A stretch of 64,000 nucleotides of DNA from an uncultured Gemmatimonadales bacterium (lineage in GTDB: Bacteria; Gemmatimonadota; Gemmatimonadetes; Gemmatimonadales; GWC2-71-9): contig CAVUMU010000002.1 in assembly GCA_963742755.1 (NCBI GenBank), positions 302,265-366,264 of the forward strand. Reading direction: 5' to 3'. The position numbers were made by a program, and so were the translations under genes. Below the pieces are notes generated by a model. It was not told where the DNA came from and did not search any database. It saw nothing but the letters and a program-made list of their open reading frames with translations. This document shows positions 10,803-13,810 of this stretch, piece after piece. The first letter of the stretch is position 1, and every line of letters begins with the position of its first letter.

Positions 10803-10848
10803 AGGTGGGTCATTCGGTTCAGCACCGGCCGCCGGTGGCCCACCTTTA
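10803..10848. terminator. hairpin between the convergent PRC-barrel gene and waaA
   Basis: AGGTGGG...CCCACCT outer stem encloses CACCGG-ccg-CCGGTG. Short T tail. Overlaps the waaA stop. Confidence 0.4.
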
Positions 10849-12218
10849 TCGCGGCGGCAAAACCCGGACGGCGTTTCCCCCGGGTCCGGCCGCCAGTAAC
10901 CCGGCCAGCATTTCCGCGCTCTTCACCGCCGCTCCAACGCCACTTTCCACCACCTGCCGTGCGCGCCGGCCCTGTTCCCGCCTGCGGGCCTCGTCGAATA
11001 TCCAATCGCTCCACTGCTTCTCCATCTCGGCGGCAGACCTCCGGGTGCTGCCGGTGGGGAGTGACGTTGCCCCCCCCGACCGAAGCAACAGCTCCGCATC
11101 CCGGCTGTTGCGCCACCGGGGCCCGAACGCAACTGGAATGCTCCAGGCGGCGGGCTCCAGCACCGAGTGCAGCCCCGCTCGCCCGAACCCACCGCCCACA
11201 TAGGCCATCGAGCCGGAGCCGTACAGCGTCGCGAGCAGACCGACCCGGTCGACCATGAGCAGCGGGCCGGGGCGGTCCGCAACGCTCAGCCGCACGGCCG
11301 GGGCAGCCCCAGACGGGCCACCAGGCCGTCCAAGGCGCTCAGGTGGGCCTCGGTGGGCTCGTGGGGCACGAGGATGAGACGAGCGTTCTGACTCCGGCGC
11401 CGGACCCCCACGAAGGCACGGAGGACCACAACCTCGTCCGAGGGCCAGGTGGATCCCGCCACCATCGTGGGGGCCCCGCGGCCGAAGCGGAGCAGAGGAT
11501 CGGAGGGATCTACCCCGAGCACGCGCTCGAGGACGCTATCGAACCGTGGATCGCCCAACACCCGGATCCGCTCCTCCGCCACGCCCAGACGAACGAGCCG
11601 GGCTGCGTCTTCTGGCGAGATAGCGGCGGCTGCCGTCACCGCCCTGTACCCTGGAGCGAGAAGCGTCCGGGCCGGCCAGCGCAGCCTGCCGCTGCCTTGG
11701 CTCACCGTCGCCGCGACCATCGCCACCTCTGTGCCGGTCGTCGAAGCGCGAGTCGCCAGCTCGGGCCACAGGTCCAGTTTGGCGAAAACCAGGAGATCGG
11801 GTTGCAGCGCGCCCAGCAGACGGTCCACGTGCTCGGGAAGATCGTAGGGGAGATAGTCGGCGACATCGACCGGAAGTCGTGCCGCGAGGCTCGTCGCCGA
11901 AGGGCTGAAATGGGTGTAGACCAGCTGACAGTCAGGCCGCAGGCGACGCAGCTGACGCAGCACGCTGTCGGCCTGGAGCCCCTCGCCCACCGACGCCGCG
12001 TGGAACCAGACCAGCGGACGGGCGTCGTCGCGGCTCGAGCGGGCCCAGTCCAGAAGGCGCTCTCCCGCGTCCTGCCGCGCACGAGTCGAGAAGCGAAGCC
12101 TGGGGGAGAGGACTCCCAGCGAGGGCACCAGCGCCGTTCCAAGTCGGACTGCGGTGCGATATCCCCAGGTTGTGGAAGCCATGGCGGGCAATGTTGCTGT
12201 GGTCGCCGATCCGGTCAA
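10846..12218 (-). pseudogene. waaA: 3-deoxy-D-manno-octulosonic acid (Kdo) transferase, split by a frameshift near 11290-11310
   Basis: The N-terminal ORF (12218-11286) carries WFHAASVGE and LILVPHEP motifs. The C-terminal ORF (11295-10846), in another frame, continues with VDRVGLLATLYGSGSMAYVGGGF..LHSVLEPAA. Confidence 0.85.
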
Positions 12219-12390
12219 CTGGGGCCGGGGGAAGGTCTTGCATCGGATCCCGGAATCCTGCTACCATTCTTTCGGCAGTACGGGTTCCACCTGCAACCGA
12301 GGGAGGTGATCCATTGTCTACAGCGTCAAGGGTCGCCTGCGGCCACTAGTAAGCGCTGCAAGCTAAACCCAGGCGACACTTCGAACCTGG

Positions 12391-12419
12391 GGGGGCCGCC
12401 ACTGGCGGCCCCTTTTTTT
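12391..12419 (+). terminator. intrinsic terminator inside the 5' leader of the CPBP protease gene
   Basis: GGGGCCGCC-act-GGCGGCCCC stem followed by seven Ts, 20 nt before the ATG at 12439. Confidence 0.7.
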
Positions 12420-12438
12420 GGCCATCCTTCGAAGGAAC

Positions 12439-13173
12439 ATGGCAACCTCCCTCTCGAACTATTGGCGCAGTGCCCGGGCGGCCCGGTATAGTCTGACTTT
12501 CGCGCTTCCGCTGCTCGTGGCGTACGAAGTGCTCGCCTTTTCCCTCTCCCACCATGAAGTCGCCGGCGTCCGCAACGGAGCCGACGTGCTGCTCAAGAGC
12601 CTCTTTCTGGCGATGGGCGGCCGGAACGGCCTGGTGCTATTCGGCGCCCTGCTGGTTGGCGGCGGCGCGTGGCTGGTCTGGCAGGACTACCGCAGATCGG
12701 GCTCGCTGGACCCCCGCGTGCTCGGGCTGATGGCGGTAGAGTCAGGATGCTACGCGTTTGTCTTTGGGATGGTGACAAGCACGCTCACCGGCCTGCTGCT
12801 CCCTGGCCTCGCTACTACACTGTCAGTGGCCCCAGCCGCTTCGTGGAGCCTGCCGACCCAACTCATGATCTCGCTCGGTGCGGGGATCTACGAAGAGCTG
12901 CTCTTTCGGGTGATCCTGGTGTCGGGACTCGCCTGGACCGCGCGGCGGGTGTTTGGCTGGACGACGACCACGGCAGGTCTCTTTGCCGTGGGTACCGGCG
13001 CGCTGATCTTCTCCGCCTTTCACTACATCGGTCCCTATGGAGACCACTTCGAGCTGGGCTCATTCACATTTCGGGCGGTTGCTGGCGTGCTCTTCAGTGG
13101 TCTGTACCTGTTGCGAGGCTTCGGGATCGCAGCGTGGACTCACGCGCTCTATGATGTGTTCTTGGCCCTGTAG
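12439..13173 (+). CDS. CPBP-family intramembrane glutamic endopeptidase (CAAX protease-like)
   Basis: Motifs EELLFR, FSAFH and HALYD in a polytopic protein. The ATG at 12439 has a GAAGGA RBS. Confidence 0.8.
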   Translation: MATSLSNYWRSARAARYSLTFALPLLVAYEVLAFSLSHHEVAGVRNGADVLLKSLFLAMGGRNGLVLFGALLVGGGAWLVWQDYRRSGSLDPRVLGLMAVESGCYAFVFGMVTSTLTGLLLPGLATTLSVAPAASWSLPTQLMISLGAGIYEELLFRVILVSGLAWTARRVFGWTTTTAGLFAVGTGALIFSAFHYIGPYGDHFELGSFTFRAVAGVLFSGLYLLRGFGIAAWTHALYDVFLAL

Positions 13174-13174
13174 C

Positions 13175-13810
13175 TCACCTTCCCGCCTTCACCGCGTACA
13201 CTGAATCCAGCACCCGCTTGAACACGTCGAACGGCACCGCGCCCTCCAGCAGCCCACCCTCGATGTAGAACGTCGGCGTGCTGGTCGCTCCAGAGCGCTC
13301 GGAGCCTTGAGCCTCAGCCCTCAGCGCCGCTTCGGTTTCGGGCGCCTGCAGACAGGCCAGGAGCATCTTCTTCGACAGCCCCGCGGAATCGGCGAGCGAG
13401 AGGAAAAACGGACCCGGCTCCTTCAGCGGCGCCCATCTCTCCTGGTAGTCAAACAGCAGATCGTGCATCGGCCAGAAGCCATCCTGCTTGGCGGAGCAGA
13501 GGGCGAGCTGGCCGGCAGCGGCCGCATGCTCATGCACACTGGTGAGGGGAAAGTTGATGAATACCCAGCGAACCTTGCCCGGCTTGATATAGCTCCGCTC
13601 GATCTGGGGGAAAGTTTCCTCCGCGAACCGCTTGCAGTAGGGACACTGGAAGTCGGACATCTCGTACACTGTCACCGGTGCCTTGGGAGAACCTTTGCTG
13701 CGGGCGGCGAGCGGGATGTCAGCCGACTGGGCCGCGAGGGGAGCGGCGCCCAGCAGCGTTAGAAGCACCCCCCCTGTCATCCTGAGGGAGTGTAACGACT
13801 GAAGCATCAT
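13175..13810 (-). CDS. DsbA-family thiol:disulfide oxidoreductase
   Basis: CPYC active site in a thioredoxin fold, with a signal peptide. GAGGA RBS before the ATG at 13810. Confidence 0.85.
   Translation of the reverse strand: MMLQSLHSLRMTGGVLLTLLGAAPLAAQSADIPLAARSKGSPKAPVTVYEMSDFQCPYCKRFAEETFPQIERSYIKPGKVRWVFINFPLTSVHEHAAAAGQLALCSAKQDGFWPMHDLLFDYQERWAPLKEPGPFFLSLADSAGLSKKMLLACLQAPETEAALRAEAQGSERSGATSTPTFYIEGGLLEGAVPFDVFKRVLDSVYAVKAGR

What the first reader, a model, noticed from the sequence alone, without database searches (positions are those of the whole stretch)
12219..12438. Structured ~170-nt leader ending in a strong intrinsic terminator just before the CPBP protease start
The divergent waaA/CPBP spacer has no ORF, but it ends in a 9-bp GC stem plus T7 (12391-12419) only 20 nt before the ATG. 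There is no room for a promoter after the terminator, so transcription of the gene must read through it.

Upstream segments can pair in mutually exclusive ways:
- GTCGCCTG (about 12325) with CAGGCGAC (12370-12377).
- CCCAGG (12368-12373) with CCTGGG (12386-12391), which invades the terminator's 5' flank.

This is the layout of a riboswitch or attenuator, or of a small RNA. I cannot match it to a riboswitch class I know (no TPP, SAM, cobalamin, glycine, FMN or fluoride hallmarks).
Basis: partly seen in the sequence, partly recalled or inferred. Interest (0 to 1): 0.6.

Follow-up and report, generated by a model that had tools for sequence, protein, structure and literature searches.

The report
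Ribosome-docking mini-mRNA gene, not riboswitch
The flagged "leader" is a separate, roughly 146-base RNA gene whose start matches the tail of 16S ribosomal RNA and is followed by an 11-codon frame; it is a Gemmatimonadota variant of the published rreB/rreR (Rfam CC2171) small mRNAs, whose function is still unknown, and it is not a riboswitch.

Summary
The terminator (stem 12392-12400/12404-12412, T7 12413-12419) and both alternative pairings are present, and the plus strand folds better than all 200 shuffles.

The spacer holds a stand-alone gene. It has a conserved promoter (TTGCAT 12238-43, N18, TACCAT 12262-67). It has a 12-nt perfect complement to this genome's own 16S tail (12302-12313; 15 bp with wobbles). 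An 11-codon frame follows (UUG 12314 to UAG 12349), then two internal sequences that can mask the ribosome site, then the terminator.

About 70 nt are identical in 24 related genomes whose neighbouring proteins are only 65-85% identical. The 18-nt module GGAGGTGATCCANTGTCT occurs in at least 120 genomes of Alphaproteobacteria, Gemmatimonadota and a few others. N is G, A or T and never C.

The class is published (Hahn et al. 2016, PMC5711450): rreB binds 30S subunits, is weakly translated, and has no known function. That paper covers only Alphaproteobacteria. Here the complement is shorter, the start is UUG and Rfam's threshold is not reached, so I file it as a variant.

No antiterminator is predicted, and six relatives keep the gene but lack CPBP. 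CPBP still has no room for its own promoter, so read-through is likely.

This scan has already found the same class on other DNA.

The parts
12238..12243 (+). -35 element TTGCAT of the element's own promoter
   Evidence: TTGCnn, an 18-nt spacer (17 in one locus) and TAnnnT occur 32-35 nt upstream of GGAGG in 19 of 25 related loci. It is only a weak match to the E. coli consensus and the consensus scan did not call it. No transcription start site data are available.
12262..12267 (+). -10 element TACCAT; predicted transcription start about 12274
   Evidence: The position and the TAnnnT form are conserved. The start site is inferred from spacing only.
12286..12292 (+). Upstream mask UCCACCU, which resembles the 16S anti-SD and can pair with AGGUG of the ribosome-binding site
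   Evidence: A CCACC(U/C) box is conserved 10-16 nt upstream of GGAGG in all three Gemmatimonadota subfamilies. It pairs with the SD in conformer B and in several subfamily minimum-energy folds.
12299..12313 (+). Extended Shine-Dalgarno GAGGGAGGUGAUCCA. Positions 12302-12313 are a perfect 12-nt complement to the 16S tail UGGAUCACCUCC, and 12299-12301 add G.U, A-U and G.U pairs.
   Evidence: The genome's own 16S 3' end reads ...GCGGCUGGAUCACCUCCUUUCU. The predicted duplex is -26.3 kcal/mol, against -11.6 for a canonical 8-nt SD. The sequence is invariant in 24 relatives.
12314..12349 (+). Mini-ORF UUG...UAG: 11 codons plus stop, MSTASRVACGH
   Evidence: The frame is 11 codons in 24 of 24 relatives, with the stop varying as TAG (15), TGA (8) or TAA (1). 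Across the class, the base before UG is G 88, A 17, T 15 and C 0. Translation was not tested here.
12330..12338 (+). Downstream mask GGGUCGCCU, which pairs with AGGUGAUCC (12304-12312) and hides the SD and the start codon in a hairpin
   Evidence: It is part of the RNAalifold consensus and is pairable in 100% of cells but invariant, so there is no covariation. Equivalent boxes GGAUYGCY and CGAUCGCC sit at fixed offsets in the 14-codon and 20/21-codon subfamilies, and the latter is in a different reading frame.
12339..12359 (+). Variable hairpin (GCGG 12339-42 pairing with CUGC 12356-59); the stop codon lies in its variable interior
   Evidence: The outer 4 bp are conserved and the interior varies in sequence and length.
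12368..12391 (+). Switch segment. CAGGCGAC (12370-77) can pair with GUCGCCUG (12332-39). Alternatively CCCAGG (12368-73) pairs with CCUGGG (12386-91).
   Evidence: Both pairings are 99% pairable in 24 sequences. The one variable column (A/G) fits both. The two conformers are nearly isoenergetic at -65.5 and -64.9 kcal/mol.
12392..12419 (+). Intrinsic terminator: 9-bp G+C stem, 3-nt loop, U7
   Evidence: Read directly. The hairpin folds at -20.3 kcal/mol. Eight stem pairs are kept in 23-24 of 24 relatives while the loop varies.
12439..13173 (+). CPBP/Rce1-like intramembrane protease gene, starting 19 nt after the T-run (a neighbour, probably fed by read-through)
   Evidence: Pfam PF02517, E = 1.9e-8. 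It lies directly after the terminator in the CPBP-bearing relatives, and is absent in six loci.
11286..12182 (-). Divergent waaA (Kdo transferase), N-terminal part; a conserved neighbour
   Evidence: Pfam PF04413, E = 8e-41. waaA flanks the element in loci of the 11-codon type and in the two 20/21-codon-type loci L027 and L122.

Best explanation
Window positions about 12274-12419 (+) are a stand-alone gene for a small mRNA of about 146 nt. It is of the 'rre' type (rreB/rreR; Rfam CC2171 is one branch).

How it most likely works:
- It is transcribed from its own promoter and ended by its own intrinsic terminator.
- Its 5' module (GAGGGAGGUGAUCCA) can pair with almost the whole free 3' tail of 16S rRNA. 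That would dock the RNA on 30S subunits with UUG (12314) in the start position.
- The over-long SD helix and the weak UUG start would allow only poor translation of the 11-codon frame.
- In the free RNA the ribosome site is hidden by one of two internal partners: upstream UCCACCU or downstream GGGUCGCCU. Ribosome binding would release GGGUCGCCU to pair with CAGGCGAC.

The RNA, rather than its peptide, is the conserved product. The biological role of the class is unknown.

In this lineage the CPBP protease gene sits directly behind the terminator without room for a promoter. It is therefore probably expressed by read-through from the same promoter.

What is shown and what is inferred:
- Shown here: the anatomy, the conservation, the complementarity to the genome's own 16S, the class-wide start-codon and frame-length pattern, and the synteny.
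- Inferred from rreB experiments in Bradyrhizobium (PMC5711450): 30S binding, weak translation, and decay that depends on the start codon.
- Inferred from layout only: read-through into CPBP.
For: Conservation:
- The core is invariant over about 70 nt in 24 genomes. The adjacent CPBP, DsbA-like and waaA proteins are 57-85% identical across relatives.
- Only one site in this genome has the motif outside what look like coding regions. In the phylum sample there is one copy per positive genome.

Transcription unit:
- The promoter TTGCnn-N18-TAnnnT lies at a fixed distance in 19 of 25 loci.
- The terminator is conserved with a variable loop.

Ribosome docking:
- The genome's own 16S tail is complementary over 12 Watson-Crick pairs plus 3 flanking pairs. 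The predicted duplex is -26.3 kcal/mol, against -11.6 for a canonical SD.
- The SD and start codon lie in a hairpin with only the 5' few nucleotides free, as predicted for rreB.

Class membership signals:
- The exact 18-nt module is shared with at least 120 loci. These include Bradyrhizobium rreB-type loci (14 codons, next to a tRNA) and Rhodobacterales rreR-type loci (18 codons).
- The base before UG is never C (88 G, 17 A, 15 T).
- Frame lengths are fixed within subfamilies while the stop codon changes identity.
- RF01867 is the only Rfam family with E below 0.01 (26 bits, E = 0.0028). It hits Caulobacter, Methylobacterium and Brevundimonas loci carrying the same motif at 91-120 bits.

Published experiments on rreB: co-sedimentation with 30S subunits, weak translation, and a half-life rising from 10 to 37 min when the start codon is removed.

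Independence from CPBP: the element is retained in six loci that lack CPBP.
Against: - There are no expression data.
- The promoter is a weak match to the E. coli consensus, and the consensus scan found none.
- There is no covariation. The helices are invariant, so structure counts equal their shuffled controls, and the two conformers cannot be ranked.
- The hallmark used by Hahn et al. (16-17 nt of perfect complementarity, including the first base of the start codon) is not met: here there are 12 perfect pairs.
- The Rfam score is far below the gathering threshold (26 against 75 bits).
- A second frame, starting at AUU 12313, also ends at a semi-conserved interchangeable stop in 16 of 24 sequences. 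The stop-codon argument alone is therefore weak.
- The in-frame substitutions seen in conserved codons (E4A, R6G, and the variable last codon) are all non-synonymous.
- Because CPBP has no promoter space of its own, the RNA may also serve as that gene's 5' leader.
Confidence: 0.72

Rival explanations
1. It is a cis-acting leader (riboswitch or ribosome-mediated attenuator) of the CPBP gene. A ligand, or translation of the mini-ORF, would decide whether the terminator forms.
For: - The likely CPBP start lies about 1-30 nt after the T-run in the CPBP-bearing loci, so its transcription must cross the terminator.
- There are two mutually exclusive, nearly isoenergetic conformers.
- The layout (leader ORF, then terminator, then gene) resembles attenuators. 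Attenuator RNAs such as rnTrpL can also act as sRNAs (title and abstract listing of PMC6614838).
Against: - The terminator hairpin is untouched in every predicted conformer. This includes the fold with the ribosome site forced open.
- The stop codon lies 43 nt before the stem, too far for a terminating ribosome to reach it.
- Six relatives keep the element and its terminator but have no CPBP gene.
- The same class sits in unrelated contexts in other phyla.
- No riboswitch family matches.
- There is no run of regulatory codons in the 11-codon frame.
Confidence: 0.08
2. It is a purely non-coding, trans-acting base-pairing sRNA. The SD-like sequence would be a seed that targets CCUCC-like sites in mRNAs or other RNAs, and the mini-ORF is never translated.
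For: - The nucleotide sequence is invariant, including at synonymous sites.
- The peptide differs completely between subfamilies, and the conserved masking box falls in different reading frames.
- CC2171 is catalogued and northern-validated as an sRNA.
Against: - Across the class, the base before UG is G, A or T in 120 of 120 loci and never C.
- The SD-to-start spacing is optimal, and frame lengths are fixed within subfamilies while stops interchange.
- rreB is translated weakly, and its decay depends on the start codon.
Confidence: 0.12
3. It is a gene for a functional 11-residue peptide, and the RNA features only serve to tune its synthesis.
For: The frame length is conserved in 24 of 24 sequences. 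The peptide sequence is conserved within each subfamily.
Against: - Within the genus, the in-frame changes in the conserved codons alter the peptide and none is synonymous.
- The last residue varies (H, R, C, L, N).
- There is no similarity between subfamily peptides.
- The synthetic RreB and RreR peptides were unstructured, and overproduction gave no phenotype.
Confidence: 0.08

Closest known systems
rreB of Bradyrhizobiaceae and rreR of Rhodobacterales: 'small mRNA with a unique, extended Shine-Dalgarno sequence' (Hahn et al., RNA Biol 2016/2017, PMC5711450)
   Same: - A stand-alone transcript of about 150-165 nt with its own promoter and terminator.
- An SD extended into a long complement of the 16S 3' tail.
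- An NUG start 7 nt after GGAGG, followed by UCU and a 10-27-codon frame.
- The SD and start codon predicted to lie in a hairpin with only the 5' few nucleotides free.
- The exact shared 18-mer GGAGGTGATCCANTGTCT.
   Different: - The phylum is Gemmatimonadota; the paper reports only Alphaproteobacteria.
- There are 12 perfect pairs (15 with wobbles) instead of 16-17, and the first base of the start codon does not pair.
- The start is UUG, not GUG.
- The frame has 11 codons with an unrelated peptide.
- There is a second, upstream CCACCU mask.
- Synteny next to waaA is conserved, and a protein gene follows directly behind the terminator.
- 30S binding is untested here.
Rfam RF01867, CC2171 (Caulobacter crescentus sRNA; northern-validated in Methylorubrum, bioRxiv 10.1101/2022.01.24.477521)
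   Same: - It is the best and only Rfam hit with E below 0.01.
- The 5' motif cGA(A)AGGAGGUGAUCCA(G/U)UGUCU is shared.
- The overall order is the same: a free 5' end, an enclosing helix, then the terminator.
   Different: - The score is 26 bits against a gathering score of 75.
- The enclosing helix and inner hairpins do not align.
- RF01867 reaches its threshold only on the Caulobacter, Brevundimonas and Methylobacterium loci. It does not on the rreB, rreR or Gemmatimonadota loci.
Ribosome-mediated transcription attenuators with leader peptides (trpL type; rnTrpL of Sinorhizobium, PMC6614838)
   Same: A short ORF, alternative helices, an intrinsic terminator, then a gene without its own promoter space.
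   Different: No antiterminator competes with the terminator. There are no regulatory codons. The element persists without the downstream gene.

Membership tests
rre small mRNAs (Hahn et al. 2016) | [quoted passage not shown] | tested here: not met
   The genome's own 16S tail is GGAUCACCUCCUUUCU. There are 12 contiguous Watson-Crick pairs (12302-12313) plus G.U, A-U and G.U upstream, giving 15 bp. U12314 faces C (direct reading).
rre small mRNAs (Hahn et al. 2016) | A short ORF that starts immediately after the complementarity region and is conserved within the clade | tested here: met
   UUG lies 7 nt after GGAGG. The frame is 11 codons in 24 of 24 relatives, and the stop interchanges among TAG, TGA and TAA.
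rre small mRNAs (Hahn et al. 2016) | A stand-alone small transcript with its own promoter and terminator | tested here: inconclusive
   Promoter-like boxes are conserved in 19 of 25 loci and a strong terminator is present.
rre small mRNAs (Hahn et al. 2016) | Most of the SD and the start codon in a hairpin, with the 5' few nucleotides free as a seed | tested here: met
   The RNAalifold consensus pairs AGGUGAUCC and UUG with CAA and GGGUCGCCU. The pairing is prediction only and the pairs are invariant.
rre small mRNAs (Hahn et al. 2016) | Binding to 30S subunits, weak translation, and decay that depends on the start codon | not testable with these tools
   These are experimental properties of rreB.
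rre small mRNAs (Hahn et al. 2016) | Sequence homology of the 5' module to bona fide members | tested here: met
   The exact 18-mer GGAGGTGATCCANTGTCT is shared with Bradyrhizobium (14-codon, beside a tRNA), Rhodobacterales (18-codon) and Caulobacter loci. The upstream CAACCGA resemblance is weaker.
Rfam RF01867 CC2171 | Covariance-model score at or above the gathering threshold (75 bits) | tested here: not met
   The score is 26 bits, E = 0.0028. There is no match at the gathering threshold in the whole window.
Riboswitch | A match to a described aptamer class | tested here: not met
   No riboswitch family appears even at E up to 10 on 1.1 kb around the site.
Transcription attenuator | Terminator stem in competition with an alternative (antiterminator) helix | tested here: not met
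   The terminator is intact in the minimum-energy fold, in both forced conformers, and with the ribosome site held open.
Transcription attenuator | Obligate linkage to the regulated downstream gene | tested here: not met
   Six related loci (L015, L018, L019, L020, L031, L121) keep the element but have no CPBP gene.

The most novel reading that the evidence does not exclude
The docking of free 30S subunits on this RNA, and the refolding that follows (GGGUCGCCU shifting from the SD to CAGGCGAC), could set how much transcription or RNA survives past the terminator. The RNA would then act as a sensor of spare ribosome capacity. It would gate expression of the CPBP intramembrane protease in an envelope-gene neighbourhood (waaA, DsbA-like). 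That would give the function-less rre class its first physiological output.
Probability: 0.06. Interest if true: 0.75.

Novelty: new variant of a known kind. Interest (0 to 1): 0.35.

Why it matters
The rre/CC2171 RNAs are among the few bacterial RNAs built to pair with the entire free tail of 16S rRNA. Ten years after their description, their function is still unknown.

Finding the same 18-nt module, one copy per genome, in a second phylum is informative. It is there with a shorter complement, a different start codon, unrelated peptides and the same self-masking logic. This indicates that the conserved product is the ribosome-docking RNA module and not the peptide.

The fixed position beside waaA, and a protease gene that can only be transcribed through the terminator, offer a concrete handle that the alphaproteobacterial genes lack. 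In those, the genomic context is not conserved.

For genome annotation, it removes a false riboswitch candidate.

Tried and rejected
- **Rfam.** At gathering thresholds on the whole window there was nothing. At E up to 10 on 1.1 kb, only the sub-threshold CC2171 hit and two chance matches appeared.
- **Consensus promoter/terminator scan.** It found nothing in 11500-13500 and missed the obvious terminator, so I did not rely on it.
- **Covariation.** Both candidate structures are 99% pairable, but every measure equals its shuffled control because the helices are invariant. Neither conformer can be preferred.
- **Stop-codon interchange as proof of coding.** This is weakened because the AUU frame (12313) also ends at an interchangeable stop in 16 of 24 sequences. 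I rejected the AUU frame because the equivalent triplet in most of the class (AGU or AAU) is not a start codon.
- **Internal promoter for CPBP.** Reading the 3' part of the element, I saw no conserved -35/-10 pair.
- **Neighbour analysis of the 14-codon and 20-codon subfamilies by raw ORFs.** This was too noisy in these high-G+C loci to use.
- **Follow-up literature.** In the held library only the original laboratory cites the rreB paper. I found no functional study and no report outside Alphaproteobacteria.

Full report
**1. What is in the sequence**

The spacer lies between waaA and the CPBP/Rce1-like gene. waaA is on the minus strand with its ATG at 12182 (Pfam PF04413). The CPBP gene is on the plus strand with its ATG at 12439 (Pfam PF02517).

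The stem is GGGGCCGCC 12392-12400, the loop ACU, the other arm GGCGGCCCC 12404-12412, followed by U7 at 12413-12419. The hairpin folds at -20.3 kcal/mol. It ends 19 nt before the CPBP ATG.

GUCGCCUG is at 12332-12339 rather than about 12325.

The plus strand folds better than all 200 shuffles (z = -3.0). The minus strand does not (z = -1.76). The consensus scan lists neither the terminator nor a promoter, so I did not rely on it.

**2. First clue to identity**

A permissive Rfam search gave no riboswitch. It gave one sub-threshold hit, RF01867 (Caulobacter sRNA CC2171), at 26 bits against a gathering score of 75, E = 0.0028. The hit rests on a nearly identical stretch, GGAGGUGAUCCA(G/U)UGUCU. 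Nothing in the window reaches an Rfam gathering score.

**3. Conservation in relatives**

- The core (window 12284-12423) is present in 20 of 24 other genomes of the genus.
- An alignment of 24 distinct copies shows about 70 invariant positions. These include all of GGAGGTGATCCATTGTCTACAG, GGGTCGCCTGCGG and most of the terminator stem.
- The flanking CPBP, DsbA-like and waaA proteins are only 57-85% identical across relatives.
- Upstream, TTGCnn, an 18-nt spacer (17 in one locus) and TAnnnT sit 32-35 nt before GGAGG in 19 of 25 loci. In the window these are TTGCAT 12238-43 and TACCAT 12262-67.

Promoter, conserved body and terminator together define an independent unit of about 146 nt.

**4. 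The 5' module is a complement of the 16S tail**

The genome's own 16S rRNA ends ...GCGGCUGGAUCACCUCCUUUCU.

- Window positions 12302-12313 are a perfect 12-nt complement.
- Positions 12299-12301 add G.U, A-U and G.U pairs.
- The predicted duplex is -26.3 kcal/mol. A canonical 8-nt SD gives -11.6, and the 17-nt rreB region gives -32.2.
- UUG follows at the optimal distance and opens an 11-codon frame, 12314-12349.
- It is the only such site in this genome that does not look to be inside a coding region.

**5. It belongs to a large class**

A scan of one genome per species for GGAGGTGATCCANTGTCT stopped at its limit with 120 loci. They are mostly Alphaproteobacteria. Eighteen are Gemmatimonadota, and a few are Gammaproteobacteria plus one Planctomycetaceae MAG.

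- N is G in 88 loci, A in 17, T in 15 and C in none, so the triplet is always a usable start codon.
- The frame from it is 10-27 codons in all but a few loci.
- Frame length is fixed within subfamilies: 14 codons in Bradyrhizobium, 18 in Rhodobacterales, and 11, 14 or 20/21 in Gemmatimonadota. The stop changes among TAA, TAG and TGA.
- In a sample of 301 genomes of the phylum, 66 carry the 17-nt pattern. Each positive genome has exactly one copy. They fall in three families (50 of 124, 9 of 70, 6 of 23). The reversed control pattern gives no hit.

**6. The class is published**

Notes from earlier agents of this scan pointed to Hahn et al. 2016 (PMC5711450), which I read. The main points of that paper are:

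- rreB of Bradyrhizobium japonicum is a 165-nt mRNA with a 17-nt complement to the 16S tail, a GUG start and a 14-codon frame.
- It co-sediments with 30S subunits and is translated only weakly.
- Its half-life rises from 10 to 37 min when the start codon is removed.
- Most of its SD and its start codon are predicted to lie in a hairpin, with five 5' nucleotides free.
- Its function is unknown.
- Analogues with at least 16 nt of complementarity were reported only in four alphaproteobacterial orders.

I confirmed that RF01867 reaches its threshold (91-120 bits) on the Caulobacter, Brevundimonas and Methylobacterium loci of my scan. It does not on the rreB-type, rreR-type, Gemmatimonadota, Pseudohongiella or Planctomycetaceae loci. 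CC2171 is therefore one branch of the class.

**7. Structure**

RNAalifold pairs AGGUGAUCC and UUG with CAA and GGGUCGCCU. [quoted passage not shown]

A second conformer pairs AGGUG with upstream CCACCU, and GUCGCCUG with CAGGCGAC. The two are nearly isoenergetic at -65.5 and -64.9 kcal/mol.

With the ribosome site held single-stranded, the GUCGCCUG:CAGGCGAC helix forms at a cost of about 10 kcal/mol. That is far less than the gain from the 16S duplex.

The terminator is intact in every case.

All these pairs are invariant, so there is no covariation, and pair counts equal their shuffled controls.

Support comes instead from the other Gemmatimonadota subfamilies. They carry equivalent boxes (GGAUYGCY at +37, CGAUCGCC at +53) and the upstream CCACC box. 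The downstream box falls in a different reading frame in the 20/21-codon type, which argues for an RNA-level constraint rather than a peptide-level one.

**8. Relation to CPBP**

- In the 18 CPBP-bearing loci listed (window included), the likely CPBP start lies about 1-30 nt after the T-run; the first in-frame start codon found mechanically falls between -6 and +30.
- Six loci have no CPBP gene. They still keep the element between waaA and the convergent DsbA-like gene.
- Two loci of the 20/21-codon type (L027, L122) also sit beside waaA.

The element is therefore not an obligate leader. CPBP appears to have come to lie behind it and to depend on leakage through the terminator. Whether that leakage is regulated is unknown.

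**9. Verdict**

The riboswitch/attenuator reading is not supported, and the small-RNA alternative is.

The element works like an rre small mRNA and shares that class's exact 5' module. It fails two formal membership tests: 16 nt of perfect complementarity, and the Rfam threshold. It also lies in a phylum not covered by the paper. I therefore file it as a new variant of a known kind.

The same class was already found by this scan on other DNA, including a locus beside waaA and one upstream of a CPBP gene.

Noticed in passing
window 10846-12182 (-): waaA is split into two overlapping frames. Residues 6-302 of a relative's single 452-aa open frame match frame -2, and residues 288-436 match frame -1. 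The break is near 11286-11295. Relatives have one ORF of about 445-450 aa. This is either a real frameshift (pseudogene) or an assembly error.
   Followed up: partly
L006 (G017), L017 (G006), L014/L143 (G008); L141 and L142 for the waaA-side junctions: In three related genomes the native promoter and leader of the element are replaced by foreign DNA joined exactly at GGAGGTGATCCATTG. In G017 and G006 a second contig keeps waaA, the promoter, the leader and GGAGGTGATCCATTG, followed by unrelated sequence. The 15-nt core is therefore duplicated like attL/attR. Direct repeats with 11-13-nt spacing (for example TGTTACCA...TGTTACCA, ACTGAACCA...ACTGAACCA) lie near both junctions, like arm-type integrase sites. 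This suggests that the conserved ribosome-site module serves as an integration site for a mobile element. No integrase gene was found because the contigs are short. In G008 only about 2.8 kb, carrying a repeat-rich secreted protein, remains.
   Followed up: partly
L056, L075, L139 (Azospirillum): Here the same super-SD module, with an ATG start, precedes a 59-60-codon ORF with a signal-peptide-like N-terminus (MSHGASPVVAALFGLAALLTAGIA...) rather than a mini-ORF. Hahn et al. noted that the Azospirillum copy is plasmid-borne and starts with ATG.
   Followed up: no
L132 ('Parcubacteria group' MAG), L125 ('Hydrogenophaga intermedia' MAG), L140 (Betaproteobacteria MAG): L132 and L125 carry alpha-type copies (MSHC... 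frames) in bins labelled as unrelated taxa. This is most simply mis-binned contigs, otherwise horizontal transfer. L140 carries the module with an ATG start and a different 23-codon frame (MSKHLS...).
   Followed up: no
window 12313-12366 (+): A second small frame starts at AUU 12313 (17 codons, IVYSVKGRLRPLVSAAS). It keeps its length in 16 of 24 relatives, with interchangeable stops. It is probably a by-product of U-purine-purine triplets in loop regions, but it is a caution against reading stop conservation as proof of translation.
   Followed up: yes
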